Assembly: GCA_020632925.1 (NCBI GenBank)
Contig: JACKER010000007.1
Coordinates: 180,910-244,909, forward strand
Direction of reading: 5' to 3'
DNA: 64,000 nucleotides
From: Alphaproteobacteria bacterium
Lineage (GTDB): Bacteria > Myxococcota_A > UBA796 > GCA-2862545
The position numbers and the translations under genes are program-made. The notes below the pieces were generated by a model. The model did not search any database. It saw only the letters and a list, made by a program, of their open reading frames with translations, and was not told the origin of the DNA. Below, one piece after another: positions 1,901 through 29,753 of this stretch; the first letter of the stretch is position 1; each line of letters begins with the position of its first letter.

Positions 1901-2691
1901 GCCGGATGGTGGCGCTCCTGCGCAAGGAGGCCCTGGACCTCGTGAAGCACCGCATGGTGCTGGTGACGCTGCTGCTCGTCCCGTCGCTGCTGACGCTGGT
2001 GGCGCTGGGCTCGGTGGTGCCGTTGCAGGCGTTGCCCCAGGGCGAGGTGTCCATGGACGAGCTCGGCCCGCTCGCGGCGAGCGTGGACTGCACCGATCTG
2101 GCGCCCGAGGACTGCCTCCGCTTGTCCGTCGCCGCGATGCACCGGCTGCTGTACCTCATCATCCCCACCACCCTGCCGACGGTGATCGCGGCCTACTCGG
2201 TCGTCGGCGAGAAGTCCGAGCGGACGCTCGAGGCCCTGCTGGCGACGCCGATCTCCACGACCGAGCTGCTGTCGGCGAAGGGGCTCGCGGCCCTGATCCC
2301 GGCGGTGGTGGCCACCTGGCTGGCTGCGGCGGTCCACGCGGCCGGCCTGTTCGCTGCCGTCGGACCGGACCTGCTCGCTCGCGTCTACACCCCCGCCTGG
2401 CTGGCGGCCCTCGTCGCGACCGTGCCGACGCTGGCGCTCGCCTCCGTCCTGCTGTCGCTGCTCGTGTCGAGCCGATCGGTCGACCCGCGATCGGCACAGC
2501 AGCTGGGTGGCTTCGTCGTGGTCCCGATCGTGGGGATGCTGATCGCCCAGTCGCTCGGCGTGGGCGTGCTGCGCGCCCCGGTGCTGGCGGCGTTGACCAT
2601 CGGCGCGGCGGCGATCGACGCGTTGCTGATGTGGCTGTGCGTGCAGGTCTTCGAGCGCGAGAGCATCCTCGTTCGCTGGAAGGGGATGTGA
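1897..2691 (+). CDS. ABC-2 type transporter permease
   Basis: Starts at ATG 1897, overlapping the ATPase stop (ATGA). It has about 6 predicted TM helices with composition typical of an ABC-2 permease. Confidence 0.8.
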
Positions 2692-2730
2692 TCTTGCCAC
2701 ACGGACCAGCGGTGAGCGTATGCTGGTCGT

Positions 2731-4362: not shown

Positions 4363-4383
4363 CGATGTTACCGGGCCGGCGAG

Positions 4384-7110: not shown

Positions 7111-7986
7111 TCAGCAGGGGCACTGGTAGAAGGGCGTGGACAGCCCGCCACGTCGCCCGCCGGACACGCTCTCGAGGACCAGCTGCTGCTCGAGCCAGGT
7201 CCGCCCGATCAGCTCGAGCTCGCCGTCGCCCTCCACGTCGAGGATCTCGTCCACGGTGAGGACGTCCCCCAGGTCGCGCTCGACCACTGCGCGCAGGCCG
7301 CCGTTCGGGTCGACCTCGTACAGTCCGAGCACGCTCCCGGTCGGCTCACCACAGCTGCCGTCGAGGTGGGCGTGGGCCATCACTCGGACGACGCCGGTGC
7401 CCGGGTGGCGAAGCAGGCGCACGTCGACGGTCGGCACTCCCTCCAGCGCACCCGAGGCCACGCTGGCGAGCAGCGCGCTGCGTGCGGCCTGCTCCTGCTC
7501 CATCGTCGCGTCCTCCGTGTTCCAGACCACCGGCGCGGCGAGCTCCGCTGCGCGTCCCCAGCGCTCGACGGCGCAACCCTCGAGCTCCGCCGCGACCACG
7601 GCCGCCCCGTGGCGCACCACGAGCTCGGGCGTCCAGCTCGTCACCTCCTCGCCCGCGTAGGTCGGGTCCCCGAACAACCGGTCCAACCGGACGAACGACG
7701 TGACGCGGGCGACGCAGCCGCTGGCCAGTCGGACCGAGGTCAGGCCGGCGAGCTCGGCGGGAACCCGGTCGGTGGACAGCGGGCGCACCAGGGCGAGGTC
7801 GCCCTCGGGTCCCTGGATCAGCTCGCCCGGCTCGGCCAGCTCGGGTGCGGGACCCTCGAACGTCGCCCACACGTGCCCTCCGCCGCTCACCACGAACAGC
7901 AGCCCGGTCGGCGGCGGCGAGGTGATCGGCACGGGGACCGGCGTGTGGGAGAAGCACCCGAGCAGCGTGGGTAGCAGGAGTGGCAT
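7111..7986 (-). CDS. Hypothetical lipoprotein
   Basis: N-terminus MPLLLPTLLGC has a signal peptide and an L-L-G-C lipobox. Composition is natural (D/E/L/V rich). Convergent with pmbA. The overlapping ORFs 7346..7957(-) and 7366..7974(+) have Arg/Pro-rich artefact-like composition. Confidence 0.55.
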   Translation of the reverse strand: MPLLLPTLLGCFSHTPVPVPITSPPPTGLLFVVSGGGHVWATFEGPAPELAEPGELIQGPEGDLALVRPLSTDRVPAELAGLTSVRLASGCVARVTSFVRLDRLFGDPTYAGEEVTSWTPELVVRHGAAVVAAELEGCAVERWGRAAELAAPVVWNTEDATMEQEQAARSALLASVASGALEGVPTVDVRLLRHPGTGVVRVMAHAHLDGSCGEPTGSVLGLYEVDPNGGLRAVVERDLGDVLTVDEILDVEGDGELELIGRTWLEQQLVLESVSGGRRGGLSTPFYQCPC

Positions 7987-8071
7987 GTCGTGTCCTCGGT
8001 TCCGGGCGGGCGGACGACCTTCGTGCTCATTTTCCTTGCGGGAGCGTGTGTGGTGCGTCTATCCTCGGTCG

Positions 8072-10138
8072 ATGTGGTTCCTCACCATCCTGGCATGCAG
8101 TGACCCCTGTGGTGGCCCGCGCTTCGTCGATCAGGACGGTGACGGCTTCGGCCGCGGGAGGGCGGCCTCCTGCGAGGGTCCGGATGTGGTGCGGGTCGGC
8201 GGTGACTGCGACGACCACGACGCGAACGTCCATCCGGGCGCGCCCGAGGTCTGTGACGGCGGTGTCGACGACGACTGCGATCCCGACACCGTCGAGGAGG
8301 AGGTGGACGGCGGGCCGGTGTTCCGTGACACCGACAGGGACGGGTTCGGTGGTGAGCGCGTGCGCGAGGGGTGCCCTGGCGATCGCGAGTCCAGCGTCGG
8401 CGGAGACTGCAACGACCTCCAGCAGGACATCCACCCGGGTGCGGCGGAAGCGTGCAACGACGGGATCGACGACGACTGTGACCCCGCCACGCCCGACGAC
8501 GACGCGCTCGGCCCCCTCTGGTACGTCGATGCGGACCTCGACGGGTTCGGGGATCCGTCGCGTCCGCTGCGGACCTCGTGCCGACCGATCGGAGGCACGT
8601 CGACGGTGGCGACGGATTGCGACGACCAGCTCGCCAGCGTGAACCCCGAGGCTCAGGAGAGCTGCAACGATCGGGACGACGACTGCGATGGGCAGGTCGA
8701 CGACGATGTGTCCTGGTGGGACGTGTTCGAGGATGCCGATGGCGACGGCTGGGGGGCGGTCGCGCTCGGCACCGTCTGCCATGTCGAGCGAGGGCAGGTG
8801 ACACTGTCGGGTGATTGCGACGACACCGAGGCCGCCATCCACCCGCAGGCCGAGGAGGTGTGCAATCACGTCGACGACGACTGCGACGGGCAGGTCGACC
8901 CGGGGTTGTGGGTCGAGCAGTGGCCGGACCTGGACGGCGACCTCCACGGCGACGCGTCGGCGAGCTCGATCGTGGACTGCCGGACGCCGGGCTGGACGAC
9001 GAGCCCGTCGGACTGCGACGACGCCACCCCCACGGTGTACGAGGGGGCGCCCGAGCACTGCGACGGCCTCGACGAGGACTGCGACGGAGCGGTCGACGAG
9101 GACGCGGTCGATCGGCGGTACCTCGACCTGGATGGAGATGGGTTCGGTCGGACGGATCGGTTCGTGACCTCGTGCGACGCCGTGGGGGCGCCGAGCGGAG
9201 GAGACTGCGACGACGACGACGCGACTGCCTACCCGGGGGCGGTGGAGACCTGTGGCGACACCACGTCGGACTGCGATGCGCGCACCGATCCGTGCTCGGA
9301 CACGTGCGTCTGGGCCCGGCGTGGGTCGGACAGCGTCTCGCTGCGGCTGGACGACGGGACGCAGGTGGCGTCACTCCCGTGTTCGATCGACGCGGTGGAT
9401 CGAGCGGGCGTCCCCGTGCGGTCGGACGACCTGCTGGTCCGGTGGACGGACCCCGGCTCGGGCAGCTGCAATGGCGACTGGGTTCCACTCGATCAGGATC
9501 TCCCCGATCCCGTTTCCTGGGAGGTGTGCGTCGGCAACTGCCCGTATTGCGGCAACTACGACTACTACGAATACTACGGCTACTACTACGATTGTGATTG
9601 CACGACCTTCGAGGCCGCGCCCGAGGTGGGTCGGCTCGCGGTGGACGACGCCGGGCACGTCTGGGCGCCATTCGGCTTGCGTGCCGCAGGTGACGAGGAC
9701 GGTGGACTGCTGGAGGTCGTGAACCCGTATGTCGTGGCCCAGCGGATTCCGTTTCCCCAGGCGTCCGCGTCCGACGGGGTGTGGTTGGTGGGCGACGACC
9801 GGTTGTGGCTGGCGCAGGGTCCCGTGCTCGTGGCGTACACGTTGCCGGGGTTGAACCCCATGGCCGACGTGCCCGGTGGTCGCGTCGTCGACGCGCTCGA
9901 CGGGCGGATGGTGGTGCTCGGGGACGGACCCGCGCGGTTCGCGGGCGCTCGGGACGGGGTCGACCTCGGGGTGTTCGAGCCGCTGGACATCACGAGCGCG
10001 CTCGCCGTCGGTCCGGGCGACCTGCTGGCGACGTTGCCGGACGGCTCGGTCGTACGGACGCGCGGTGACGGCGTGGTCGTGCCCTGGCTCCCCGCGGGGT
10101 CGGCGACCGAACTGGTGGGTATCGCTCCCTGCCCGTAG
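8072..10138 (+). CDS. Cys-rich repeat lipoprotein of the MopE-like 'putative metal-binding motif' family
   Basis: N-terminus MWFLTILAC (lipobox). Contains at least 9 repeats of DCDDxDxxxxPGAxExCNGxDDDCDG. The C-terminal repeat-free domain is shared with the downstream paralog. Confidence 0.8.
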   Translation: MWFLTILACSDPCGGPRFVDQDGDGFGRGRAASCEGPDVVRVGGDCDDHDANVHPGAPEVCDGGVDDDCDPDTVEEEVDGGPVFRDTDRDGFGGERVREGCPGDRESSVGGDCNDLQQDIHPGAAEACNDGIDDDCDPATPDDDALGPLWYVDADLDGFGDPSRPLRTSCRPIGGTSTVATDCDDQLASVNPEAQESCNDRDDDCDGQVDDDVSWWDVFEDADGDGWGAVALGTVCHVERGQVTLSGDCDDTEAAIHPQAEEVCNHVDDDCDGQVDPGLWVEQWPDLDGDLHGDASASSIVDCRTPGWTTSPSDCDDATPTVYEGAPEHCDGLDEDCDGAVDEDAVDRRYLDLDGDGFGRTDRFVTSCDAVGAPSGGDCDDDDATAYPGAVETCGDTTSDCDARTDPCSDTCVWARRGSDSVSLRLDDGTQVASLPCSIDAVDRAGVPVRSDDLLVRWTDPGSGSCNGDWVPLDQDLPDPVSWEVCVGNCPYCGNYDYYEYYGYYYDCDCTTFEAAPEVGRLAVDDAGHVWAPFGLRAAGDEDGGLLEVVNPYVVAQRIPFPQASASDGVWLVGDDRLWLAQGPVLVAYTLPGLNPMADVPGGRVVDALDGRMVVLGDGPARFAGARDGVDLGVFEPLDITSALAVGPGDLLATLPDGSVVRTRGDGVVVPWLPAGSATELVGIAPCP

Positions 10139-10171
10139 CGGACGGATGGGCGGATCGAGTAGGGTTTCGGC

Positions 10172-12052
10172 ATGTGGCTCTGGTTGGCCATCGGGTGTGG
10201 GCGAGACTGTACCCCCGAGATCGTGCGCCCCGACCGCGACGGTGACGGGTACGGTCTGGGTGCGCCCTCGTTCGCCTGCGTGGGGCCGGGCCTCGCGAAC
10301 CGCTTCGACGACTGCGACGACACCGATCCGACGATTCACCCCGACGCGGTGGACACGTGCAATGGCGTGGACGACGACTGCGACCCGACCACCCTCGAGG
10401 ACGAGGTGTCCGGCGTGCCGCTGTTCCACGACGGTGACCGTGATGGGTTCGGCGGGGCACCGGCGGGGTCGGGGTGCCCCTCGCGCGGCGTGTCGCTGGT
10501 CGCGGGGGACTGCGACGACCGTGACGAGACCGTGTTCCCGGGTGCCCCCGAGCTGTGCAACGACGGCCGGGACGACGACTGCGACCCGTCCACTCCGGAT
10601 GACGTGGGGCGGTTCGGGACCGAGGGGTACGCGGACGCCGACGACGACGGGTACGGCGACCCCGACCGGCCACTCGGACGGAGCTGCGAGCCGATCGGTG
10701 CGACGACGGGGGACGACTGCGACGACGGGGACCGCCTGGTCCACCCGAGAGCCCGCGAGGTGTGCAACGGCGTCGACGACGACTGCGACGGCCTGACCGA
10801 CGAGGACGTGCTGCCCGAGTGGTGGGCGGACGCCGATGGCGACACCTTCGGGGGCGAGGCGCTCGGTCCGGCGTGTGAGTCTCCCCGGCCCGGCGCGGTG
10901 CACCGTGGCGGCGACTGTGACGACGCGCGGGCCCGGGTGTACGACGGGGCGCCCGAGCACTGCGACGGGACGGACGAGGACTGCGACGGGCTCGTCGACG
11001 AGGACGTTGTGGACCGGTGGTACGCGGACGCCGACGGCGACGGGTGGGGACGGACGGAGGACTGGGTGGCGGGGTGCGATCCGTCGCTCGGCGCGCGCTG
11101 GGGCGGGGACTGCGACGACACCGACCGCAACACGTACCCCGGCGCACCCGAACGCTGCGGCGGGAGCGCGTCGGACTGCGACGGACGCACCGACCCGTGT
11201 GTGGAGGGGTGCGTCTGGTTGGCGAGCGCGACGCACACCTTCGCGGTCCGACCCTCCGACGGCGCCGTGCTCGCGTCGCTGCTCGGCAGGTACGACACGG
11301 TGGATCGGACGGGCGGGCTGTGGACGACGGACGGCACCGATGTGGTGCGGCGGGACCCGGGATCGGGCGTCGCCACCGGGTGGCCGCTCGCCGACGAGCT
11401 GCCGGAGCCGACCACCTGGGTCGAGTGCATTCCGAACTACGGCTCGTGCGACGGAACGTACTACCGCACCGACTGGTACTGCCCCGCTCACCACACGTCG
11501 CCCGAGCTCGGCCGCCTGGCGGTGGGGACGTTCGGCGAGCTGTGGGTCCCCTATGGCGAGCGTGACGAGGTGACGGACTACTACGGGTACAACGTCGGTG
11601 CGATCGAGTCCGGCGCGGGCGGTCTGATGGTGTTCGACACGGTGGATGGGCTGCGGGACGAGCTCGCCTTCCCGTGGGGCACGCTCGCGGCCTCGGCGTG
11701 GCCCGTGGGCCCGGACCGCCTGTGGCTCCAGCAGGACACCGAGCTCGCGGGGCTCGCGCCGGGTGGCGTGGAGGTGGCGCGCGTCGTCGGCGAGCGAGCG
11801 GTGGACACGCTCGACGGGCGGATGGTGGTGCTCGGCGCCGCGGTGCCGCGCTTCGCGGGCGCTCTGGACGGCGCGGACCTCGGGGTGTTCGAGCCGCTCG
11901 ATGCGACGGACGCGCTCGCCCTCGCGCCGGGCGTCGTGCTCGCCACGCTGCCCGACGGTTCGGTGGTGGTCGCGCGTGGGGACGGTGTGGTCCGCGAGCT
12001 GCTGCCCGCGGGATCGGCCAACGGGGTGGTGGGGTTGGGCCCGTGTCCCTGA
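10172..12052 (+). CDS. Cys-rich repeat lipoprotein (MopE-like), tandem paralog of 8072..10138
   Basis: N-terminus MWLWLAIGC (lipobox). Same DCDD...PGA.E.CNG.DDDCDG repeats and a conserved C-terminal domain (...VVLG..PRFAGA.DG.DLGVFEPLD...LATLPDGSVV..RGDGVV..LPAGSA..VG..PCP). Confidence 0.8.
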   Translation: MWLWLAIGCGRDCTPEIVRPDRDGDGYGLGAPSFACVGPGLANRFDDCDDTDPTIHPDAVDTCNGVDDDCDPTTLEDEVSGVPLFHDGDRDGFGGAPAGSGCPSRGVSLVAGDCDDRDETVFPGAPELCNDGRDDDCDPSTPDDVGRFGTEGYADADDDGYGDPDRPLGRSCEPIGATTGDDCDDGDRLVHPRAREVCNGVDDDCDGLTDEDVLPEWWADADGDTFGGEALGPACESPRPGAVHRGGDCDDARARVYDGAPEHCDGTDEDCDGLVDEDVVDRWYADADGDGWGRTEDWVAGCDPSLGARWGGDCDDTDRNTYPGAPERCGGSASDCDGRTDPCVEGCVWLASATHTFAVRPSDGAVLASLLGRYDTVDRTGGLWTTDGTDVVRRDPGSGVATGWPLADELPEPTTWVECIPNYGSCDGTYYRTDWYCPAHHTSPELGRLAVGTFGELWVPYGERDEVTDYYGYNVGAIESGAGGLMVFDTVDGLRDELAFPWGTLAASAWPVGPDRLWLQQDTELAGLAPGGVEVARVVGERAVDTLDGRMVVLGAAVPRFAGALDGADLGVFEPLDATDALALAPGVVLATLPDGSVVVARGDGVVRELLPAGSANGVVGLGPCP

Positions 12053-20452: not shown

Positions 20453-20594
20453 GCCGACGGTGAACTTCGCCGAGAGCTTGCGCTTCGTTCGTCGCGTACA
20501 GGAGTACGCTTCCTCCCTGCAGCGCGGCGCTCTCGACGAAGTTCCCGCGCCGGCTCCCCGCCTCTGAGCGTTGGTGGTGTGCGAGCGTCCGCCG

Positions 20595-20829
20595 CGGGCG
20601 CCCGGCTCGGAGCGGTGTCCCGGGTCGCGAGCGCAGCGAGCCGCAGGCTCACGCGCTCGGGCAGCACCTCCAGCCAGGTGTCAGGACGTGATCCTTGATC
20701 ATTTCGGGCCCTTCCGCCACGGGCGCCCGGCTCGGAGTGGTGTCCCGGGTCGCGAGCGCAGCGAGCCGCAGGCACACGCGCTCGGGCACGACGTCCAGCC
20801 CGGTGTCAGGACGTGATCCTTGATCATTT
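20595..20829. repeat. Tandem direct duplication of about 125 bp (two copies, about 93% identity); each copy ends in the 27-bp motif GTGTCAGGACGTGATCCTTGATCATTT
   Basis: Compared by eye: the first copy ends at 20704, the second runs about 20720..20829. Lies in the intergenic region between the rhomboid gene and the Ser/Thr kinase. Confidence 0.8.
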
Positions 20830-20889
20830 GTGCGGTGGGCACTCTCCGTCCCGTGGCACACGACCACGACCACGACCACGACTCGCCGG

Positions 20890-20916
20890 AAATGATCAAC
20901 GATCACCTCCTGACAC
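20890..20916. repeat. Inverted copy of the 27-bp motif (AAATGATCAACGATCACCTCCTGACAC)
   Basis: Reverse complement of the motif found at 20678..20704 and 20803..20829, with 1-2 mismatches. Confidence 0.75.
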
Positions 20917-20954
20917 CCATGCGCGTCCGCCACCCATGCGCTTCCGCGCTACCT

Positions 20955-20990
20955 CCCGCTCCCGCTCCCGCTCCCGCTCCCGCTCCCGCT
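20955..20990. repeat. Hexanucleotide microsatellite (CCCGCT)6
   Basis: Perfect tandem hexamer. The same unit recurs inside the pseudokinase CDS at 29246..29335. A second microsatellite, (ACGACC) in about 4 copies, lies at 20860..20882. Confidence 0.85.
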
Positions 20991-21001
20991 TCGGGCCCCC
21001 G

Positions 21002-21028
21002 AAATGATCAACGATCACGTCCTGACAC
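21002..21028. repeat. Second inverted copy of the 27-bp motif (AAATGATCAACGATCACGTCCTGACAC), 16 bp upstream of the kinase start
   Basis: Near-exact reverse complement of the direct copies. Confidence 0.75.
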
Positions 21029-21043
21029 CAGGGGAACACCCGG

Positions 21044-23297: not shown

Positions 23298-24299
23298 GTG
23301 GGCGTGGTCGAGACGTTCCTGCGGCACACGGGGACCGAGGTCCCGCTGCTGTGTGGCGCCATGTACCCGTGCAGCAACCCGGAGCTGGTGGCCGCGGTCT
23401 CCGAGGCAGGCGGCATGGGCATCGTGCAGCCCATCTCCCTGGTCTACGCCCACCGCCGCCGCGATCTGCGCGAGGCCCTGCGGGAGATCAAGCGCCTCAC
23501 CGACAAGCCCATCGGGTTCAACGCGATCGTGGAGCAGTCGAGCCAGGTCTACCTCGACCGCATGAAGACCTGGGTGGACATCGCCCTCGAGGAGGGGGTG
23601 CGGTTCTTCGTCACCGCGCTCGGGAAGCCGGGCTTCGTGGTCGAGAAGGCACACGCCGTCGGCGGCTTCGTCTACCACGACGTGACCGAGCGCCGCTTCG
23701 CGCAGCGGGCCCTGGACGAAGGCGTCGACGGGCTGATCTGCGTCAACGGGAACGCGGGCGGGCACGCCGGCCAGCGCACCCCCGAGGCCCTCTTCGCGGA
23801 GCTCGGGGACCTGGGCGTGCCGCTCGTGTGCGCGGGCGGCGTGGGCGACGAGCGGCGCTTCGTGCAGATGCTCGACCTCGGGTACGCGGGCGTGCAGATG
23901 GGGACGCGGTTCATCGCCACGACCGAGTGCACCGCGCACCCCGACTACAAGGCCGCCATCGTGAAGGCGAAGGCGGACGACATCGTGCTCACCGAGCGTC
24001 TCTCGGGGGTGCCCGTCGCCGTCATCGAGACCGAGTACGTCAAGCGCACGGGGACCCGCGCGAGCCGCCCCATGCGCTGGATGCTCCGTCACCCGCGGTT
24101 CAAGCACTGGGCGCGCTCCTGGTACTCGATGCGCTCGGTGTTCAAGCTCGCGAAGGGGAACCGCCGCGCTGACGCCTACTCGGACTGGCTCCAGGCGGGC
24201 CGGAGCGTCGAGGACGTGCATGCCGTGGTCCCGGCCGGCGACGTGGTGCGCGCCTGCGGCGAGGCGTGGCACGCCCGAGGCGGGCTCCAGGCCCGGTGA
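23298..24299 (+). CDS. Nitronate monooxygenase (NMO, 2-nitropropane dioxygenase/FabK-like FMN TIM-barrel)
   Basis: MYPCSNPELVAAVSEAGGMGIV, the phosphate-binding motif GGVGDERR, and overall NMO-family pattern. Confidence 0.8.
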   Translation: MGVVETFLRHTGTEVPLLCGAMYPCSNPELVAAVSEAGGMGIVQPISLVYAHRRRDLREALREIKRLTDKPIGFNAIVEQSSQVYLDRMKTWVDIALEEGVRFFVTALGKPGFVVEKAHAVGGFVYHDVTERRFAQRALDEGVDGLICVNGNAGGHAGQRTPEALFAELGDLGVPLVCAGGVGDERRFVQMLDLGYAGVQMGTRFIATTECTAHPDYKAAIVKAKADDIVLTERLSGVPVAVIETEYVKRTGTRASRPMRWMLRHPRFKHWARSWYSMRSVFKLAKGNRRADAYSDWLQAGRSVEDVHAVVPAGDVVRACGEAWHARGGLQAR

Positions 24300-24303
24300 T
24301 ACG

Positions 24304-24338
24304 GGCTACAGGCTACAGGCTACAGGCTACAGGCTACA
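24304..24338. repeat. Heptanucleotide tandem repeat (GGCTACA)5, followed by degenerate copies to about 24360
   Basis: Perfect 7-nt tandem copies. The reverse complement (CCTGTAG)2 appears at 24805..24820, giving inverted flanks around the 24644..24804 array. Confidence 0.85.
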
Positions 24339-24439
24339 GGCTCGGGCTACGGGCTCGGTGCCCCCTATCGGAGTGTATGGGACCGACGCTCCCCCGCCTG
24401 CTCCTCGCAGGCACTCGCCCCGACCGCGAGCCGACCGAT

Positions 24440-24495
24440 GAGCCATGTGCCGGTGGATGATCGGTGCGTTCGAGCCATGTGGCAGTCGATGATCG
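24440..24495. promoter_or_regulatory. Pair of 24-bp direct repeats (GAGCCATGTG-C-GT-GATGATCG) spaced 32 bp start-to-start; a putative transcription-factor operator
   Basis: 21 of 24 positions identical between copies 24440..24463 and 24472..24495. Lies in a locally lower-GC stretch upstream of the 24879 gene. Confidence 0.4.
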
Positions 24496-24643
24496 ACTCC
24501 ACCTGGGTCCGTCTGACGCATTTGCGGTAGAACCGTAGTTATCGCTCGTCCACTCACACCGCCCCAGGTCCTCGCGCGCCAGATCGATCAACGACTGGCA
24601 CATGGCTCCAAACCACCCCTCAGTCGCGATGAGATGGCCGACG

Positions 24644-24804
24644 CCCGAAGCCCGAAGCCCGAAGCCCGAAGCCCGAAGCCCGAAGCCCGAAGCCCGAAGC
24701 CCGAAGCCCGAAGCCCGAAGCCCGAAGCCCGAAGCCCGAAGCCCGAGGCCCGAGGCCCGAGGCCCGAGGTCCGAAGCCCGAAGCCCGAAGCCCGAAGCCC
24801 GAAG
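24644..24804. repeat. Heptanucleotide VNTR (CCCGAAG)x23 with a few G/T variants
   Basis: 161 bp, exactly 23 units of 7 nt. The variant units CCCGAGG and TCCGAAG cluster near the 3' end. Lies 75 bp upstream of the CDS starting at 24879. Confidence 0.95.
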
Positions 24805-24878
24805 CCCGAAGCCTGTAGCCTGTAGCCTCTACCAGGGGGTCCGGCGGAGCCCGAGCCGTCCGGTGATATGCTGCCCCG

Positions 24879-25796
24879 GTGAGCCTCGGCGCCTACCAGG
24901 TCCCGCGCGACGCCGGCACGGTCATGGTGCACGTGCAGATCATCGATCTGCAGCCGTTCAGCCTCGACCTCGTCGTCCCGACCTACCTCCCGGCCAGGGA
25001 CCTGACCCAGCGCGTCGCGCGCGACGCCGGGCTCGGTGGTTACTGGCCCGACGGCACCCGGCGGGAGTACTGGCTGCGTGCGCGCGGGCGCCTGATGCAG
25101 CCCGAGGAGAAGCTGCAGGACCTCGGGGTCGTGCCGGGCGAGCTGCTCCACCTGTTGCCACAGCCACCGCCCGGCAGCGGCCTGCAGGAGCGGCCCCCCG
25201 AATACCCGGAGAACCGCGGGTACGCGGCGGCCGGCAACATCAACGTCCTGTTCGGCCTGTTCACCGTGTTCCTGTGGACGGGCCTGTGGGCCACCGCCCT
25301 GACCGTGCGCCACGGCATCGTCTACGGCCTGTTCCCCGGCGTCGGGCTGTCGCTGCTGTGCACGTCCTTCTCGCGCCACCTGTGGGGTGGGCTCGGCTCG
25401 CAGGTGCGCATCCCGGTCACCGCGTTCCTGCTGTTCGGCTCGCTGCTCCTGCTCGCGGGCGTGCCCACCTTCGTGATCCAGGACCCGCTGGCGGACATCG
25501 CCCTGTCGCTGGGCACGGCGTTCGTGGGCGGCGCCTTCGGCATCCTGCTCGGCTGGCTCGCGTGGTACGGCGCGGTCGAGCCGCTCCCCGAGATCGCGCT
25601 CAAGGAGGTCAAGGCCGCCGAGGCGCTCGTGACCTGGCCCTGCGGCATCTGCGGGGGGCCCGTGACCGTCGAGGTGAAGGCGGACTGCGCCTTCGGGTGC
25701 GGCCGCGTGTTCCACCAGGGCTGCTACGCCGCGAAGAACGCGATGTCCGACGGCAAGACCTGCGCGGTCTGCGGTCTTCAGGCCCCAGCGGCCTGA
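24879..25796 (+). CDS. Membrane protein with an N-terminal ubiquitin-like (beta-grasp, YukD-like) domain, 4-5 TM helices and a C-terminal Cys4 zinc-ribbon
   Basis: N-terminus VMVHVQIIDLQPFSLDLVVPTYLPARDL...LGVVPGELLHLLP shows a beta-grasp pattern. Hydrophobic core follows. C-terminus has WPCGICGG...CAFGCG...CAVCG. Confidence 0.65.
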   Translation: MSLGAYQVPRDAGTVMVHVQIIDLQPFSLDLVVPTYLPARDLTQRVARDAGLGGYWPDGTRREYWLRARGRLMQPEEKLQDLGVVPGELLHLLPQPPPGSGLQERPPEYPENRGYAAAGNINVLFGLFTVFLWTGLWATALTVRHGIVYGLFPGVGLSLLCTSFSRHLWGGLGSQVRIPVTAFLLFGSLLLLAGVPTFVIQDPLADIALSLGTAFVGGAFGILLGWLAWYGAVEPLPEIALKEVKAAEALVTWPCGICGGPVTVEVKADCAFGCGRVFHQGCYAAKNAMSDGKTCAVCGLQAPAA

Positions 25797-27712
25797 ACCT
25801 CGTCCTCGTCGGCCTCCATCAGCGCCGCCACGTCGGGGTCGAGCGCCGGCTCCGGCTCGGGCTCCGCCGCGACCTCGTCCTCGGACTCGGGGAACTGGTG
25901 CCGGAGGAGCAGCGAGCGTCCGGCACCCTCCCCCAACGTCGCGACCCGGCGCACCAGCCGGAGGTGCGCGTCCCGACGGTCCTCGGCGGCGTCCAGCTCG
26001 ATCTGCGAGCCCACGGTGAGCGCCAGGTCGTCACCCGCGTGCAGGGCCTCCTCCGACAGCGCCCGCGCCAGCGCCAGCCCGCGCGGTGTGTTCGCCTCGG
26101 CCGACGTCGCCAGCACCCGGAGCGCGAGCGCGACCGCAGGACGCTCGGCGGCGCGGCCCGCCAGCGCGAGCAGGTGGTCTGCGTCCACCTCGCCCGTGGC
26201 TGCGCGCGCGAAGGCCAGCGCGATCTCGCCCTCGAGCCCCCGCGCCTGCGCCGCGACCCAGGGCACGGCGTCCTCGGGCCGCCCCTCGCGCCAGGCCTCC
26301 GCGAGCGCGTCGTTGAGCTGGAGCGGAGGCAGGGCGACCTGCGGCTGGAGGCGCGCGCTCGTCACCAGGACCCCGGCCATCCAGCCGGCGATGTGGTTGA
26401 ACGCCACATCCAGTCCCTTCGCCGCGCGGCGCAGACCGTTGCGGATGCCCGGCGGCGGCACCGCCCGCTGACGCACGGCCCGCGCGATCTCCACGAGCAG
26501 TTGCAGCACCTTGCCCACCTCGAGGTCCGCCTGCTGCGCGAGCCGGATCATCGCGGCCGGAGAGGTCTCGTCCGCCAGGACGTCGGCGGCGGCGAGCACG
26601 AAGAAGGCGGCGTCCGTCTTGAGGCGCGCGCAGGCTCCCGCCATCTTCTCGGCCGACTCGAGCGCGGCGTCGAAGATCCCCGCCATCGGGTCGCCACGTC
26701 CCCCCGTCAGCTCGGTGAGCAGCGCGTCCAGCCCGAGCGGATCGTCTTCGGGGACCACGTCGTCGGTCACCGGCAGCGACACCAGCCAGGAGGCGCCGGG
26801 GACGTGGGGGGCGAGGTCGTCGAGCAGCGCTCGCACGTGCTCGATCACCTCGACCGACGGCGACGGACCAGCCTCGAGCTCCTTGGGCGGCAGGGCCTCG
26901 AGCGTGGGGCGGACGAGCTCGAGCGACGTGGGGAGCCGCAGCTCCCGTGTGCGGACGTCGTCGTTGACCCTGTCCAGCACGGGCGCGGTCGTCGCCAGCT
27001 CGAGCATCAGGGTGGCGAACCCGTAGCCCTGCGACGGATCGGGCGTGGCCGACATCGCGTCGACCACGAGCAGCTGCGTGAGGGACAGGACCCGCGCGCG
27101 CGTCGTCACCAGGCGCCCGCCGCGATCCACCAGCGGCGGAGCGGCCGGGAGCAACAGGTGCGCCCAGGTCCGGTGGAGGAGGGAGCCGTCGGACAGGCGC
27201 GTGGCGGCCCGCACGAGCGGCGTGGGATCGCGCAGGACCACCTGCGGCGACAGCCCGATCCCGTCGGGGAGATCCTCGATCAGCTCGACCGGGTCCTCCT
27301 CGAGCGCTCGCAGCAGCTCCTCGTCCTCCTCGGCGAGCTCGCCCGTGGGCATGGTCTCGACGAACTTGGGTGCGTCCTGCCCGCGGCGGATCCCGGGGTT
27401 CCAGGAGCGGACCAGGTCCTCCATCTCGATGGGCGCGTCCGCGGGAGCGTCGTCGCCGCCGTAGTCCGCGCCGTCCTTGTCCGCGGTCTCGGGCCGCAGG
27501 ATGACGTCGGTCCCCTGGCCGGCCTCGCCCGCCTTCATGCCCCCGAGGCCGAGCAGGGCGGCGATCTCCTGGTTGCCCAGCTGGTCCTGGGCCGCGTCGC
27601 GCTGTTGCTCCTGCTGCTGTTCCTGCTGCTGCTCGAGCTCCTGCTCCTCCTCCTGTTCCTGTTGGGGGAGCTGCTTCTTGCGCAGGTCGTCGTTCGGATC
27701 CGGTCTGGCCAC
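25778..27712 (-). CDS. Hypothetical acidic protein with a Gln/Glu-rich low-complexity N-terminal segment
   Basis: Start GTG 27712 preceded by GGAGG. N-terminus ...RKKQLPQQEQEEEQELEQQQEQQQEQQ. The remainder is D/E/L/A-rich with no recognised motif. Divergent from the pseudokinase gene. Confidence 0.55.
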   Translation of the reverse strand: MARPDPNDDLRKKQLPQQEQEEEQELEQQQEQQQEQQRDAAQDQLGNQEIAALLGLGGMKAGEAGQGTDVILRPETADKDGADYGGDDAPADAPIEMEDLVRSWNPGIRRGQDAPKFVETMPTGELAEEDEELLRALEEDPVELIEDLPDGIGLSPQVVLRDPTPLVRAATRLSDGSLLHRTWAHLLLPAAPPLVDRGGRLVTTRARVLSLTQLLVVDAMSATPDPSQGYGFATLMLELATTAPVLDRVNDDVRTRELRLPTSLELVRPTLEALPPKELEAGPSPSVEVIEHVRALLDDLAPHVPGASWLVSLPVTDDVVPEDDPLGLDALLTELTGGRGDPMAGIFDAALESAEKMAGACARLKTDAAFFVLAAADVLADETSPAAMIRLAQQADLEVGKVLQLLVEIARAVRQRAVPPPGIRNGLRRAAKGLDVAFNHIAGWMAGVLVTSARLQPQVALPPLQLNDALAEAWREGRPEDAVPWVAAQARGLEGEIALAFARAATGEVDADHLLALAGRAAERPAVALALRVLATSAEANTPRGLALARALSEEALHAGDDLALTVGSQIELDAAEDRRDAHLRLVRRVATLGEGAGRSLLLRHQFPESEDEVAAEPEPEPALDPDVAALMEADEDEVQAAGA

Positions 27713-27758
27713 GCGGCCTCCGCGGTAAGGATAGCGCGGAGGTGGTACTCTCCCCGCG

Positions 27759-29753
27759 ATGGCGGAGTCGAGCATCGCGGGCATGGCCCCCACCGGCCGG
27801 AAGCTCTCCGGACCGGGGATGGAGATCAGGGAGCTTGCGGCGGCCAACGGGCTGAAGCACCTGGCGTTCGTCCACGACGAGTCGCTGCGGTCGCACCCGG
27901 CGCTCGGGCCCGAGGTCCAGGCGCGGCTCGGGTTCATGGAGCAGCCCGAGGTCGGCGGGATGGTGCGGCTGGCCTGGCACGACGGCGCCACCGGCACCTT
28001 CGTGTACCCGACGGGCACGGTCTGGACCGTCGCCGAGGTCGTCCGGCAGTACGCAGACTCCGGGGACGCGCCCGGGGTGAAGGCCGGGCTCGAGCTGGCG
28101 TACCTCGTGGGCGAGACGCTGGTGGAGGCGGCGGAGGCCGGTGTGGGGCAGGGGATCCCGTGCCACGGCAACGTCAGCCCCTGGACGGTCGGGATCAAGG
28201 GCGACGGGCAGCCCGTGGTCATGCTGTACGGGGTGCCCCAGGCGGAGGTCCTGGCCTGGCGCGAGAACCCCAAGCGCGCGCTCTCGGAGGACGCCTTCCG
28301 GTACGCGCCGCCCGAGCGCCTCGAGGGTGATCGTCCCGAGGACGTCTCGTCCGATCTGCTGTCGCTGGCACTCGTCGCCCTCGAGGTGATGGTGGGGCGC
28401 CCGGTCTACGACGGCGTCGTGGCCGACGTTCGGCAACAGGCGAGCCGTGGGGAGGGCGTCCGCCGGCTCTACCAGTGGCGCGAGAAGCTCCCCCAGAACG
28501 TGCGCGAGGTCATGGGTCGCGCCCTCAAGCCGGACCCGGACACCCGCTTCCCGAACGGCATGGAGTTCGTGTATGCGGTGCACGATCTCCTCGGCAGCAT
28601 CGACGTCGAAGGGCCCTCCCTGGTCGAGGTGATGGCGCGCGTGCGCGCATCGGAGCGCCGAGCACGCAGCAGCGGCACTCGGACCGGCGCGCTCACACCG
28701 GAGGAGCTGCGGGAGATCGCGGCCGACCTGGACGAGGTCGAGGACCGACCCCTGCCTCCGCCCCGCCGCGCGCGCCCGGAGGCCGCCGACGAGGACGAGC
28801 CCGCGGAGAAGCCGCGCTGGACCCGGGTCACGCGCAACGCCGACCGCCGCGCCGACGCCGGCGAGACCACGGGCGGTGGTGCGCCCCAGGCCACGGGGCG
28901 CCAGCTGACGGGACGGCGCGAGCGTCCGGCGGTCACGCGCGACGAGCCGCCACCGGGGCAGGCCACCGGCGCGCACGATCGACCGCGTCGGCGGCTGCGC
29001 GGCGACGGCTCGGTGACCGGCACCCAACCGCGCCCCTCGGCCCAGGCGGCCATCGAGGACGACACCGCTGCCCGGGACCGTCTCCGCCGCCGGCTGCGGT
29101 CGTCACGGACCGCCGAGATCCCCGCCCGCCCGGAGCCCCTCGACACGGGGCAGCTCGCGGGCCTCGACCTCGACGCCCCCGACGACGTCGATCTGGAGCC
29201 CGTCACGGGTCGCCCGCCCGCCCTCGACACCGCCGAGGTCATGAGCGCCGCTCCCGCTCCCGCTCCCGCTCCCGCTCCCGCTCCCGCTCCCGCTCCCGTT
29301 CCCGCTCCCGCTCCCGCTCCCGCTCCCGTTCCGGCTCCGGCAGACACGCTGTCGAGGCGGATGCGGCGCGAACGCCCCGAGCCTGCTCCGGCCGTGGAGG
29401 ACGAGCCGCTGCTCGAGGACTCCACTGCGGAGCGGAGCGCTGCCGCCGCGCTGCTCGAGCGCCTGCGGACCTCTGGTGGCCGCCGTCGTCGACGCGCCCC
29501 GGAGCCCGAGCCGCCGGCCCCCGTCGCGGCCGACGACGAGCCGATCACGGCGGTGGTGGACGTGCCGCCGGAGGCGCCCGAGCCCCAGCGTCTCCCGGGT
29601 CGGGTCGTGGCCGAGGCCGGACGCCCGCGCGCGCCCCGCCGACGCCCGCGCCCCCGCCGACGCCCGCGCCCCCGCCGACGCCCCGGCCCGCGGTGGCTGC
29701 GCCGGCCCCAGCGGAGCCTGCGCCCGCCGCGCCCAGGGATGGGGACTGCCTGA
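27759..29753 (+). CDS. Pseudokinase (degenerate protein-kinase fold) with a long Pro/Ala/Arg-rich disordered tail; apparent frameshift near 29600-29700
   Basis: Kinase-like fold retaining FRYAPPERL (APE-like), but with no GxGxxG, HRD replaced by CHGN and DFG replaced by LYG. Contains (AP)n encoded by (GCTCCC)n at 29246..29335. The frame-0 tail becomes PRRRPRP-type, whereas the +2 frame continues as PAPPPTP... into a folded domain ending at 30184. Confidence 0.6.
   Translation: MAESSIAGMAPTGRKLSGPGMEIRELAAANGLKHLAFVHDESLRSHPALGPEVQARLGFMEQPEVGGMVRLAWHDGATGTFVYPTGTVWTVAEVVRQYADSGDAPGVKAGLELAYLVGETLVEAAEAGVGQGIPCHGNVSPWTVGIKGDGQPVVMLYGVPQAEVLAWRENPKRALSEDAFRYAPPERLEGDRPEDVSSDLLSLALVALEVMVGRPVYDGVVADVRQQASRGEGVRRLYQWREKLPQNVREVMGRALKPDPDTRFPNGMEFVYAVHDLLGSIDVEGPSLVEVMARVRASERRARSSGTRTGALTPEELREIAADLDEVEDRPLPPPRRARPEAADEDEPAEKPRWTRVTRNADRRADAGETTGGGAPQATGRQLTGRRERPAVTRDEPPPGQATGAHDRPRRRLRGDGSVTGTQPRPSAQAAIEDDTAARDRLRRRLRSSRTAEIPARPEPLDTGQLAGLDLDAPDDVDLEPVTGRPPALDTAEVMSAAPAPAPAPAPAPAPAPVPAPAPAPAPVPAPADTLSRRMRRERPEPAPAVEDEPLLEDSTAERSAAAALLERLRTSGGRRRRRAPEPEPPAPVAADDEPITAVVDVPPEAPEPQRLPGRVVAEAGRPRAPRRRPRPRRRPRPRRRPGPRWLRRPQRSLRPPRPGMGTA

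What the first reader, a model, noticed from the sequence alone, without database searches (positions are those of the whole stretch)
24300..24878. Perfect 23-copy heptanucleotide VNTR (CCCGAAG)n bracketed by inverted (GGCTACA)n arrays, upstream of a ubiquitin-like/zinc-ribbon membrane protein
A 161-bp array of exactly 23 heptamers sits 75 bp upstream of the CDS at 24879. It is flanked at the 5' side by (GGCTACA)5 and at the 3' side by its reverse complement (CCTGTAG)2, so the array lies inside a roughly 530-bp inverted-repeat-bounded segment. Between the flanks is a locally lower-GC stretch carrying two 24-bp direct repeats spaced 32 bp start-to-start (three helical turns), consistent with a response-regulator-type operator. 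A 7-nt unit cannot be read in-frame; the apparent (PKPEARS)n ORF at 24634..24825 is therefore almost certainly not the function. A long perfect heptamer tract in promoter-proximal DNA is a classic substrate for slipped-strand length variation that changes promoter-to-operator spacing, giving phase or strength variation. Such tracts are rare in a 70% GC chromosome outside contingency loci.
Basis: partly seen in the sequence, partly recalled or inferred. Interest (0 to 1): 0.65.

Follow-up and report, generated by a model that had tools for sequence, protein, structure and literature searches.

The report
Inverted heptamer arrays beside flipped gene
The spacer between two genes is built from two mirror-image arrays of 7-base repeats around a small core, a type of repeat cluster already described in other bacteria. 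It adjoins a 1-kb gene cassette that looks inverted, so the proposed "promoter switch" is plausible in spirit but unproven and probably not why the repeats are there.

Summary
The repeats are real, but they are not a perfect 23-copy array. There are 24 units at 24644-24811: 19 CCCGAAG, 4 CCCGAGG and 1 TCCGAAG, with a longest perfect run of 14. They are followed by CCTGTAG x2 plus CCTCTAC.

The left flank, (GGCTACA)5 plus three degenerate inner units, mirrors the right arm in the order of its unit types. The whole 24300-24832 segment is therefore a foldback.

The claim that such tracts are rare is wrong. Among the 119 loci returned, inverted heptamer pairs outnumber direct pairs 36 to 12, and most lie between co-directional genes. 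The same architecture was described in Xanthomonas (PMC4692102).

Six relatives have at most 49 nt upstream of this gene and no repeats.

The downstream YukD-like gene is bracketed by a perfect 17-nt inverted repeat. Flipping it in silico restores the operon arrangement of the closest relative. The array's "promoter-proximal" position is therefore probably secondary.

Verdict: a new member of a known kind, an intergenic heptameric simple-sequence-repeat (SSR) pair. Its function is untested, and a graded effect on gene expression through a hairpin or G-quadruplex is the best guess.

The parts
23298..24299 (+). Upstream gene, a nitronate monooxygenase family protein. Its stop codon (24297-24299) lies 4 nt before the first heptamer unit.
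   Evidence: Pfam NMO, E=3.5e-40. Coding-like GC3 of 0.97.
24304..24338 (+). Left arm, outer part: (GGCTACA)5, the reverse complement of the TGTAGCC/CCTGTAG unit type.
24339..24358 (+). Left arm, inner part: the degenerate units GGCTCG GGCTACG GGCTCG(G). These are reverse complements of CGAGCC / CGTAGCC, the inner unit type of the right arm.
   Evidence: Sequence read directly. rc(left) aligned to the right arm.
24359..24643 (.). Core or spacer of the foldback, 285 nt, GC 58-66%. It shows no coding periodicity in any frame.
   Evidence: No Rfam family. No homologue of its longest ORF.
24440..24463 (+). 24-nt motif, copy 1: GAGCCATGTGCCGGTGGATGATCG.
24472..24495 (+). 24-nt motif, copy 2, 32 nt after copy 1.
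24585..24608 (-). 24-nt motif, copy 3, in inverted orientation. It pairs with copy 1 in the RNA fold and with copy 2 in the DNA fold, forming the inner stem.
   Evidence: (I3, I7).
24644..24811 (+). Right arm, inner part: 24 heptamers (14 CCCGAAG, 4 CCCGAGG, 1 TCCGAAG, 5 CCCGAAG). On the minus strand this reads (CTTCGGG)n, which fits the G3N4 G-quadruplex consensus.
   Evidence: G4 pattern at 24644-24765 (18 G-tracts) and 24777-24807 (5 G-tracts) on the minus strand.
24812..24832 (+). Right arm, outer part: CCTGTAG x2 plus the degenerate CCTCTAC. It pairs with (GGCTACA)n of the left arm.
   Evidence: (I6: 22 nt, 95% complementary).
24842..24858 (+). IR-L, the left copy of a perfect 17-nt inverted repeat (CGGCGGAGCCCGAGCCG) bracketing the YukD cassette. 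It resembles degenerate array units (CGGAGCC CGAGCC).
24859..24882 (+). Remnant of the 3' end of an upstream gene (SGDMLPR*). Its TGA stop overlaps the GTG start of the YukD gene (GTGA).
   Evidence: Frame translation. The 53 nt upstream of the start align to the 3' end of the upstream gene in L002, with 0 of 2000 shuffles reaching the score. Family C-terminal tails are shown.
24879..25796 (+). Downstream gene: a YukD-like ubiquitin-fold domain, a transmembrane region and a Cys-rich C-terminus, 305 aa.
   Evidence: Pfam YukD, E=6.3e-7, 30.5 bits against a cut-off of 27. zf-RING_2 scores below its cut-off. 402 homologues were found.
25853..25869 (-). IR-R, the right copy of the 17-nt inverted repeat. 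It lies inside the coding sequence (AAEPEP) of the minus-strand gene.
25778..27760 (-). Convergent gene of about 630-660 aa (the mechanical ORF runs to 28273). It is homologous to the gene that lies directly upstream of, and co-oriented with, the YukD gene in the closest relative.
   Evidence: tblastn of the L002 625-aa protein gives 43% identity and E=6e-106. Homologues are listed.

Best explanation
**What it is.** The 24300-24832 segment is a lineage-specific intergenic foldback made of two heptameric simple-sequence-repeat (SSR) arrays in inverted orientation. It belongs to the class of long heptanucleotide SSRs, in the "convergent pair" arrangement described for Xanthomonas GGGNATC repeats.

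**How it is built.**
- The arrays grow and shrink by slipped-strand mispairing.
- The two arms keep a mirrored order of unit types: TGTAGCC-type outside and CGARGCC-type inside.
- The arms are predicted to pair into a stem of about 50 bp that encloses the core. Roughly 16 surplus right-arm units are looped out.
- The complement of the long arm, (CTTCGGG)n, fits the G-quadruplex consensus.

**How it came to sit upstream of the gene.** The YukD-like gene most likely lies downstream of the array only because a 994-bp cassette (24859-25852) was inverted. The inversion took place between a perfect 17-nt inverted repeat, one copy of which adjoins the array and looks like degenerate array units. Before the inversion the foldback lay between the 3' ends of two convergent genes.

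**What it does.** The inferred effect is structural and acts in cis. A hairpin and/or G4 in DNA or in a read-through transcript would insulate, process or stabilise the neighbouring transcripts. In the present orientation it would dampen or tune expression of the YukD gene in a graded, length-dependent way. This resembles the hmw1A 5'-UTR hairpin or REP-type hairpins more than a switch that changes promoter spacing.

**Shown versus inferred.**
- Shown: the anatomy, the predicted fold, absence from relatives, recurrence of the class across phyla, the 17-nt inverted repeat and the synteny.
- Inferred: transcription through the element, the structures forming in vivo, any effect on expression, and the direction and age of the inversion.
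For: **Anatomy and mirror symmetry:**

**Fold.** The whole element (24290-24880) folds with the left arm paired to the distal right arm.
- As RNA the energy is -267.9 kcal/mol, against -231.4 +/- 7.1 for shuffles (z = -5.1).
- As DNA, z = -5.8.

**G-quadruplex pattern.** It occurs on the minus strand only.

**The class exists and is widespread.**
- Those loci hold 266 heptamer arrays, with 36 inverted pairs against 12 direct pairs.
- 19 of the 29 pairs with genes called on both sides lie between co-directional genes, and they often fill the whole spacer.
- CCCGAAG is the commonest unit. The same two unit types abut each other in an Acidobacteriota MAG.

**Literature.**
- PMC4692102 reports 70-75 convergent heptamer pairs per Xanthomonas genome. 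[quoted passage not shown] Their lengths differ between species.
- PMC4679880 covers the abundance of heptamers among long SSRs.
- PMC12721329 shows a heptamer SSR forming one arm of a 5'-UTR hairpin that RNase III processes.

**Lineage-specific.** Six relatives have a gap of at most 49 nt upstream of the gene and no similarity to the spacer.

**Inversion.**
- The 17-nt inverted repeat is perfect.
- Only 2 such pairs occur in the 64 kb, against 0.07 expected.
- The gene upstream of YukD in L002 is homologous to the gene that is convergent here.
- The 53 nt upstream of YukD are homologous to the 3' end of that L002 gene.
- Flipping in silico restores a tail typical of the family and a GTGA stop/start overlap.
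Against: - There is no expression or structure data of any kind.
- No promoter or terminator was detected, so it is unknown whether the arms are ever on one transcript.
- The arms are very unequal (8 units against 27). They are 285 nt apart, whereas most pairs elsewhere are 8-160 nt apart. Pairing may therefore not be the selected property.
- The left arm has no G-quadruplex motif.
- The rest of the source genome could not be scanned, and the window holds only this one heptamer locus. A genome-wide family in this organism is not shown.
- The 56 nt that form the present C-terminal tail of the convergent gene are strongly coding-like: GC3 18/18 and GC2 6/18. A recent one-way inversion does not explain this.
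- The match between the C-terminal tails is short and MAFFT did not align it.
Confidence: 0.55

Rival explanations
1. **Contingency locus.** The heptamer tract lies between a promoter or operator in the core and the YukD gene. Slippage changes the spacing or the UTR length and gives phase or strength variation.
For: - The tract is long, with a perfect run of 14 units, so it should be prone to slippage.
- In the present assembly it sits 46-67 bp upstream of the start codon.
- The core has lower GC and three copies of a 24-nt motif that could bind a regulator.
- There is a precedent: expression of hmw1A in H. influenzae is inversely proportional to the length of a heptamer SSR (PMC12721329).
Against: - No sigma-70-like promoter was found.
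- The tract is interrupted by a block of variant units.
- Arrays of this kind are common in free-living, high-GC bacteria and mostly sit between co-directional genes or just after stop codons (PMC4692102).
- The spacer is absent from six relatives.
- The gene-array juxtaposition appears to result from an inversion.
- Copy-number heterogeneity was not observed, because only one short-read contig exists and it breaks in the array.
Confidence: 0.12
2. **Functionless by-product.** The arrays are neutral slippage expansions and an inverted duplication that accumulated in a dispensable spacer at a rearrangement scar. They have no selected role.
For: - The spacer is lineage-specific and absent from relatives.
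- It sits at the boundary where homology to the relative's operon stops.
- The arm lengths are unequal and the units degenerate.
- No known RNA family, promoter or terminator was detected.
- The core has no homologues.
Against: - The mirrored order of unit types in the two arms, and the predicted fold with z about -5, are not expected from independent neutral slippage.
- Inverted pairs outnumber direct pairs three to one across phyla, and mirrored irregularities are conserved in other genomes such as L008 and L036.
- Positional and orientation rules are reported for Xanthomonas (PMC4692102).
Confidence: 0.22
3. **Mobile element.** The segment is a non-autonomous foldback or MITE-like element with heptamer-array terminal inverted repeats. 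It, or an inner 169-bp element bounded by the 24-nt motif, inserted here.
For: - The architecture is one of nested inverted repeats.
- GC is locally lower.
- It lies at a synteny breakpoint.
Against: - No target-site duplication is visible at either boundary.
- There is no second copy of the core or of the 24-nt motif in the 64 kb.
- The motif is found in JGI metagenomes only as a chance match inside an unrelated coding sequence.
- The longest ORF of the core has no homologues.
- No transposase or recombinase family was found among the major flanking ORFs scanned (16-36 kb, plus 7.7-12 kb).
- In other genomes the arms are shared between loci while the spacers differ.
Confidence: 0.06
4. **Coding sequence.** The array is translated as a (PKPEARS)n repeat peptide from ORF 24634-24825, or as part of a larger protein.
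For: The ORF is open and starts with ATG.
Against: - The heptamer contains no stop codon in any of the six frames, so an open frame is automatic.
- A 7-nt period is characteristic of non-coding SSRs (PMC4679880).
- There is no Shine-Dalgarno-like sequence before 24634.
- This exact peptide is not in the 15-billion-protein collection, although the neighbouring gene product is.
- The adjacent core shows no codon-position GC periodicity.
Confidence: 0.02

Closest known systems
G-rich heptameric repeats GGGNATC of Xanthomonas and Nostoc, including the 'convergent' inverted pairs (Rehm et al. 2015, PMC4692102)
   Same: - They are tandem heptamers of 2-26 units in intergenic DNA.
- Many occur as two arrays on opposite strands close together.
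- They are preferentially found between aligned ORFs.
- The G-rich strand is antisense within about 50 bp upstream of an ORF, or sense just after a stop codon.
- The unit is G3N4 (here GGGCTTC on the minus strand).
- Lengths differ between related species.
   Different: - The unit sequence differs.
- The left arm here (GGCTACA) has no G3 tract.
- The arms are 285 nt apart with a structured core between them, rather than closely adjacent.
- A genome-wide family could not be shown for this organism.
- G-quadruplex formation was not tested.
Long heptanucleotide SSRs, STRR-type repeats and Beggiatoaceae TAACTGA repeats (as reviewed in PMC4679880; cyanobacterial heptamers as cited in PMC4692102; Geobacter heptanucleotide elements, PMC2700814)
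   Same: - Heptamer tandem arrays are over-represented in the intergenic DNA of free-living bacteria with large genomes.
- Their function is unresolved.
- Roles suggested in the literature include post-transcriptional regulation and genome rearrangement.
   Different: - Those families are defined by one genome-specific word present at tens to hundreds of loci.
- Here only one locus is visible, with two related words arranged as a mirror-image pair.
H. influenzae hmw1A/hmw2A (ATCTTTC)n 5'-UTR repeat (PMC12721329)
   Same: - A heptamer SSR lies upstream of a gene.
- The repeats form one arm of a long hairpin with a complementary partner region.
- Expression depends on array length.
   Different: - In hmw the SSR is shown to be transcribed, cleaved by RNase III and variable in populations. 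None of this is known here.
- The hmw partner arm is a G-rich region, not a second heptamer array.
- hmw belongs to a host-adapted pathogen, whereas this is an environmental MAG.
REP/BIME and REPIN intergenic palindromes (own knowledge, not tested here)
   Same: - They are hairpin-forming inverted repeats that fill the spacers between co-directional genes.
- The arms are conserved and the loops variable.
- Known effects include stabilisation of upstream mRNA.
   Different: - REP arms are unique palindromic units of 20-40 nt mobilised by RAYT transposases.
- Here the arms are tandem heptamers, and no RAYT could be looked for outside the window.
Invertible DNA segments bounded by short inverted repeats (fimS, the Hin/Gin systems, shufflons; own knowledge)
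   Same: - A gene-sized cassette (994 bp) is bracketed by a perfect 17-nt inverted repeat.
- One repeat copy lies inside a coding sequence, so flipping would swap that protein's C-terminal tail and couple or uncouple the downstream gene.
   Different: - No recombinase family was found among the major flanking ORFs scanned (16-36 kb, plus 7.7-12 kb).
- Only one orientation has been observed.
- No inverted repeat is present in relatives.

Membership tests
Intergenic long heptameric SSR (LSSR / STRR-like) | Head-to-tail tandem copies of a 7-nt unit, far longer than chance allows | tested here: met
   TRF reports 25.1 copies, 97% matches and score 310 at 24638-24813, and 8.1 copies at 24300-24355.
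Intergenic long heptameric SSR (LSSR / STRR-like) | Located in non-coding DNA | tested here: met
   The arrays lie between the NMO stop codon (24299) and the YukD start codon (24879). The core shows no codon periodicity, and the ORF peptide is not in the protein collection.
Intergenic long heptameric SSR (LSSR / STRR-like) | The same word recurs at many loci of the same genome | not testable with these tools
   Only 64 kb of the source genome is available and it holds one heptamer locus.
Convergent (inverted) heptamer pairs of the Xanthomonas type (PMC4692102) | Two arrays of related units on opposite strands, close together | tested here: met
   rc(left arm) aligns to the distal right arm in the same unit order. 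Inverted repeats I1-I6 are listed. The spacing of 285 nt is at the long end of what is seen elsewhere.
Convergent (inverted) heptamer pairs of the Xanthomonas type (PMC4692102) | Position and orientation rule: between aligned ORFs, with the G-rich strand antisense within about 50 bp upstream of an ORF or sense just after a stop codon | tested here: met
   Both flanking genes are on the + strand. The left arm starts 4 nt after the stop codon. The right arm ends 46 nt before the start codon, with its G-rich strand on the minus strand. The rule is quoted.
Convergent (inverted) heptamer pairs of the Xanthomonas type (PMC4692102) | G-quadruplex formation by the repeat | tested here: inconclusive
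   The sequence pattern G3N1-7 x4 is met for the right arm on the minus strand (23 G-tracts) but not for the left arm. Biophysical formation cannot be tested here.
Phase-variable contingency locus (SSR-mediated) | Unit number differs within or between populations | not testable with these tools
   The only other assembly of the locus (L001) breaks inside the array. No reads are available.
Phase-variable contingency locus (SSR-mediated) | SSR placed within or between promoter elements, or in a mapped 5'-UTR | tested here: inconclusive
   No sigma-70-type promoter was found in 24100-25000. The scan does not cover other promoter types, and there are no transcript data.
Phase-variable contingency locus (SSR-mediated) | Uninterrupted, homogeneous tract | tested here: not met
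   Variant units (4 CCCGAGG and 1 TCCGAAG) interrupt the tract into runs of 14 and 5.
MITE / foldback transposable element | Multiple copies, with target-site duplications | tested here: not met
   There is no second copy in the window. Only a chance coding match was found in metagenomes. The core ORF has no homologues. No duplication is visible at the borders. The rest of the genome was not searchable.
Known structured RNA family (Rfam) | Match to a covariance model at or near its gathering score | tested here: not met
   The only matches are to three eukaryotic miRNA models, with E = 0.38-3 and scores far below gathering. None overlaps the element.
Site-specific invertible segment (inverton or shufflon type) | Inverted repeats bracket the segment | tested here: met
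   A perfect 17-nt inverted repeat lies at 24842-24858 and 25853-25869. Two such pairs occur in the 64 kb against 0.07 expected.
Site-specific invertible segment (inverton or shufflon type) | Dedicated recombinase nearby, and both orientations present in a population | tested here: not met
   No recombinase or transposase family was found among the major flanking ORFs scanned (16-36 kb, plus 7.7-12 kb). The independent contig L001 shows the same orientation at both junctions. The population mixture itself could not be tested.

The most novel reading that the evidence does not exclude
The foldback heptamer pair and the 17-nt inverted repeat form one recombination-prone module. In this reading, microhomology derived from the heptamer units drives reversible flipping of the 994-bp YukD cassette without a local recombinase.

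Flipping would toggle two things at once:
- The C-terminal tail of the roughly 640-aa neighbouring protein. Both alternative tails look functional: one is typical of the family and the other has a coding-like GC3 of 18/18.
- Translational coupling of the YukD-like gene to that neighbour.

The array would tune expression in the uncoupled state.

More broadly, inverted heptamer-array pairs would be a cross-phylum class of intercistronic elements, maintained by their hairpins, that also seed gene-scale inversions.
Probability: 0.08. Interest if true: 0.75.

Novelty: new member of a known kind. Interest (0 to 1): 0.38.

Why it matters
On its own this locus is one more example of a poorly understood but already described class: intergenic heptameric SSRs, often arranged as inverted pairs.

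Three points make it useful:
- **It corrects an assumption.** Long SSRs in high-GC environmental bacteria do not mark contingency loci. They are common and follow positional rules, lying between co-directional genes and directly after stop codons.
- **The inverted-pair architecture is widespread.** It was reported for Xanthomonas. In a sample of 119 loci it recurs in Acidobacteriota, Chloroflexota, Myxococcota and other phyla. Irregularities are mirrored between the two arms, which argues for maintenance of pairing and makes the function of the class testable.
- **It suggests a route to rearrangement.** A copy of array-like sequence forms one arm of a perfect inverted repeat around a gene that is inverted relative to its relatives. 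This is a concrete case for the idea that such repeats promote rearrangements.

Tried and rejected
- **Rfam.** A scan of 20-30 kb at permissive E-values found nothing relevant.
- **Promoter and terminator scan.** A consensus scan of 24100-25000 found none.
- **Same locus in other assemblies.** The aim was to compare unit numbers. Exact-protein look-ups gave one short-read contig that breaks in the array. The NMO product is not on record.
- **24-nt motif.** A search of JGI metagenomes returned two contigs of one unrelated organism, where the match lies inside a coding sequence, so it is a chance match.
- **Longest core ORF (89 aa).** A search against 5.8 billion proteins found no homologue.
- **Recombinase or transposase.** None was found among the main flanking ORFs scanned.
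- **Heptamer remnants at the other inversion breakpoint.** Only the (CGGCTC)3 hexamers that encode EPEPEP are there.
- **Inverted repeats flanking the YukD gene in relatives.** None was found.
- **Alternative-orientation protein.** A search for it among homologues of the convergent gene failed. The window's own product is not in the collection and the best hit is only 61% identical.
- **Coding reading of the array.** Rejected, because the open frame is automatic for this unit.
Full report

Largely yes, with corrections. Tandem Repeats Finder reports a period-7 array at 24638-24813 with 25.1 copies, 97% matches and score 310. It reports a second array at 24300-24355 (8.1 copies) and a short third at 24810-24828.

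Parsed unit by unit, the long array is 24 units over 168 bp (24644-24811). It consists of 14 CCCGAAG, 4 CCCGAGG, 1 TCCGAAG and 5 CCCGAAG, followed by CCTGTAG x2 and a degenerate CCTCTAC (24812-24832). It is therefore neither perfect nor 23 copies, and the longest perfect run is 14 units.

The two 24-nt direct repeats at 24440 and 24472 (32 nt apart, 88% identical) are real.

- A third, inverted copy of the 24-nt motif lies at 24585-24608. The window holds 3 matches against 0 expected by chance.
- The left arm continues with three inner units, GGCTCG GGCTACG GGCTCG (24339-24358).
- A 17-nt inverted repeat brackets the downstream gene (section 3).

The statement that a 7-nt unit cannot be read in frame is wrong. 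Such an array reads as a 7-aa repeat in every frame and is open only because the unit has no stop codon.

The array's right junction is reproduced exactly by a short-read contig (L001), which is identical to window 24799-25876. That contig breaks inside the array, so the copy number rests on the MAG assembly alone.

**2. Anatomy**

The reverse complement of the left arm aligns with the distal right arm in the same order of unit types. CGAGCC/CGTAGCC units lie on the inside and TGTAGCC units on the outside (inverted repeats I1-I6).

The segment 24300-24832 is therefore a compound foldback. It has an outer stem of heptamer units, a 285-nt core of lower GC (58-66% against 73% for the window), and an inner inverted repeat formed by the 24-nt motif.

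Folding 24290-24880 pairs the left arm with the last eight or so units of the right arm and leaves the surplus right-arm units in a loop.
- As RNA the energy is -267.9 kcal/mol, against -231.4 +/- 7.1 for shuffles (z = -5.1).
- As DNA, z = -5.8.
- The core alone is less remarkable, with z = -2.7 on the plus strand and -1.9 on the minus strand.

The complement of the long arm, (CTTCGGG)n, satisfies the G3N1-7 quadruplex pattern with 23 G-tracts. The left arm does not.

Several searches found nothing:
- No Rfam family matches the element.
- No sigma-70-like promoter or intrinsic terminator was found.
- The core has no codon periodicity.
- The longest core ORF has no homologue.
- The 24-nt motif occurs in JGI metagenomes only as a chance match inside an unrelated gene.

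**3. Surroundings**

The element fills the spacer between a nitronate-monooxygenase gene and a gene for a membrane protein.
- The monooxygenase gene is 23298-24299. The left arm begins 4 nt after its stop codon.
- The membrane-protein gene is 24879-25796. It encodes a YukD-like ubiquitin-fold domain and a Cys-rich tail.
- Both genes are on the plus strand.

The source is a MAG (protein MCB9683582.1, H6735_00915, a 1.13-Mb contig). It is labelled Alphaproteobacteria, although the homologues come mostly from Myxococcota MAGs.

In six relatives with 74-79% identical protein, the YukD gene has almost no upstream spacer. In five it overlaps or follows a co-oriented upstream gene by at most 18 nt. 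In the sixth it lies 49 nt from a divergent gene. No repeat-bearing spacer is present, and nothing resembles the window's spacer.

In the closest relative (L002) the upstream gene encodes a 625-aa protein and overlaps the YukD start (ATGA). Its homologue in the window (43% identity, E = 6e-106) lies downstream of YukD on the opposite strand.

The evidence for an inversion is as follows:
- The 53 nt upstream of the window's YukD start align with the 3' end of the L002 gene; none of 2000 shuffles reach that score.
- In the corresponding frame these 53 nt end in SGDMLPR*, with the TGA overlapping the GTG start (GTGA). Family members end in ...GDTLAP* or ...RDTLAP*.
- A perfect 17-nt inverted repeat (24842-24858 and 25853-25869) brackets the gene.
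- Only two such pairs with 500-1500 nt spacing exist in the 64 kb, against 0.07 expected.
- Relatives have no such repeat.
- Flipping 24859-25852 in silico yields a 643-aa protein (read from the frame position used for the query; the likely GTG start gives about 630 aa) with the family-type tail, coupled to YukD exactly as in L002.

I therefore infer that the YukD cassette is inverted relative to the ancestral operon. Before that event the foldback lay between the 3' ends of two convergent genes.

The copy of the repeat next to the array reads like degenerate array units (CGGAGCC CGAGCC). Array-like sequence may thus have supplied the homology for the inversion.

One observation does not fit a recent one-way inversion. 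The 56 nt that now form the tail of the convergent gene are strongly coding-like, with GC1 17/18, GC2 6/18 and GC3 18/18.

**4. What kind of thing is it?**

These came from Streptomyces and other Actinomycetota, Acidobacteriota, Myxococcota, Chloroflexota, Planctomycetota, Bacteroidota, Spirochaetota and others.

Those loci contain 266 heptamer arrays of at least 3 copies.
- The median is 4.7 copies.
- 34 arrays have at least 10 copies and 3 have at least 24.
- The longest has about 110 copies.
- CCCGAAG is the commonest unit, with 19 arrays.

Pairs of arrays with reverse-complementary units within 1 kb number 36, against 12 direct pairs.

Among the 34 inverted pairs with arms at most 700 nt apart, crude gene calls place 19 of the 29 pairs with genes on both sides between co-directional genes. 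Six lie between convergent genes and 4 between divergent genes. The pairs often fill the spacer to within 20 nt on both sides.

Two further observations stand out:
- In two loci of one Thermoanaerobaculia MAG (L008, L036), the arms share the same irregular interruption in mirror image while the loops differ.
- A Vicinamibacteraceae MAG (L085) has the same two unit types as the window abutting each other.

The architecture is already in the literature.
- Rehm et al. (PMC4692102) found 183-186 GGGAATC-type arrays per Xanthomonas genome, of which 70-75 cases were convergent inverted pairs. The arrays were preferentially between aligned ORFs. [quoted passage not shown] They were mostly transcribed, and their lengths differed between species. 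The window's element obeys these positional rules.
- PMC4679880 summarises earlier work showing that heptamers are the most abundant class of long SSR in many genomes. It describes the TAACTGA arrays of Beggiatoaceae and suggests roles in translation and in rearrangement.
- PMC2700814 lists heptanucleotide elements in Geobacter.

**5. How it most likely works**

Shown: the structure, the predicted pairing, the G4 pattern, the lineage specificity, the recurrence of the class and the inversion signature.

Inferred: the arrays change length by slippage. The arms pair, or the long arm forms G4, in DNA or in a read-through transcript. This has a graded effect in cis on the neighbouring transcripts.

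The best functional precedent is hmw1A of H. influenzae. There, about ten heptamer repeats form one arm of a 5'-UTR hairpin that RNase III cleaves, and expression falls as the SSR lengthens (PMC12721329).

I give this composite explanation a confidence of 0.55. Class membership is much more secure than function.

The rivals are:
- A neutral by-product of slippage at a rearrangement scar (0.22).
- A foldback or MITE-like mobile element (0.06).
- A translated repeat peptide (0.02).

**6. Verdict**

This is a new member of a known kind. The claimed perfection, the claimed rarity and the operator and promoter reading are not supported. The slippage-prone nature of the array and a possible length-dependent effect on the downstream gene remain plausible but untested.

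The more interesting lead is the 17-nt inverted repeat around the YukD cassette and its link to array-like sequence. Long reads from the source sample would settle both the unit-number heterogeneity and whether both orientations coexist.

Noticed in passing
window 20588-21040: This is a second repeat-rich spacer, directly upstream of the Ser/Thr kinase gene at 21044. It has a 125-bp unit repeated twice (94% identical) and a 28-35-nt motif (GGTGTCAGGACGTGATCSTTGATCATTT) present as two direct and two inverted copies (94% complementary). (CACGAC)4 and (CTCCCG)6 hexamer arrays lie between the motif copies. Its layout of motif pairs plus SSRs resembles the heptamer element.
   Followed up: partly
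window 20894, 21006 and 24586 (minus strand): The 9-mer TCGTTGATC occurs only three times in the 64 kb. All three are inside the repeated motifs of the two repeat-rich spacers, against about 0.1 expected from base composition. The significance is marginal once the number of possible shared words is taken into account.
   Followed up: partly
window 24842-24858 / 25853-25869 and 25797-25852: A perfect 17-nt inverted repeat brackets the YukD gene. Both alternative C-terminal tails of the neighbouring gene of about 640 aa look real. One matches the family, and the other has GC3 of 18/18. It is unresolved whether this is a reversible switch or the relic of another gene.
   Followed up: partly
window 56350-56366 / 57211-57227: This is the only other perfect 17-nt inverted-repeat pair with 500-1500 nt spacing in the window (ACGGCCCGTCCCGCTCG). 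It lies in a region of overlapping long ORFs near a kinase gene.
   Followed up: no
window 29248-29338: (CCGCTC)15 is a hexamer array inside the gene at 27759-29753, which has a weak Pkinase match. It encodes a (PA)n / (APAPVP) stretch. This is an in-frame SSR, unlike the heptamers.
   Followed up: no
L004 765-4921, L005 2049-4918, L125 2394-5433: In several relatives the YukD-like membrane gene is the last gene of a cluster that contains a Tail_P2_I (phage baseplate protein) homologue and a conserved 311-aa gene. This suggests a link to a contractile-injection-type system. These genes are not in the window.
   Followed up: partly
L026 (Thermomicrobiales MAG) 499-6433: Six inverted heptamer-array pairs with different words (AGCCGGT twice, AGTGGCA, GGCGGGA, AGTGACA, AGTCTCA) lie within 8 kb. 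Several of them (about four by the crude gene calls) fill the spacer between co-directional genes from the stop codon to the ribosome-binding site.
   Followed up: partly
L105 6557-7338 (Streptomyces beigongshangae): A heptamer array (CTCCGGG) of about 110 copies is the longest in the sample.
   Followed up: no
L085 6890-7026 (Vicinamibacteraceae MAG): The same two unit types as in the window, (GGCTACA)-type directly abutting (CCCGAAG)n, lie between divergent genes in an unrelated phylum.
   Followed up: partly
window 7700-12052: Two large genes carry many MopE-type Cys-rich metal-binding repeats (Pfam PF11617). These account for most of the long direct-repeat families in the window.
   Followed up: no
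whole window / source record: The MAG is labelled Alphaproteobacteria in NCBI. However, homologues of the YukD-like protein that carry names are mostly from Myxococcota or Myxococcales MAGs. The window is rich in Ser/Thr kinases at 73% GC. The label may be wrong.
   Followed up: no
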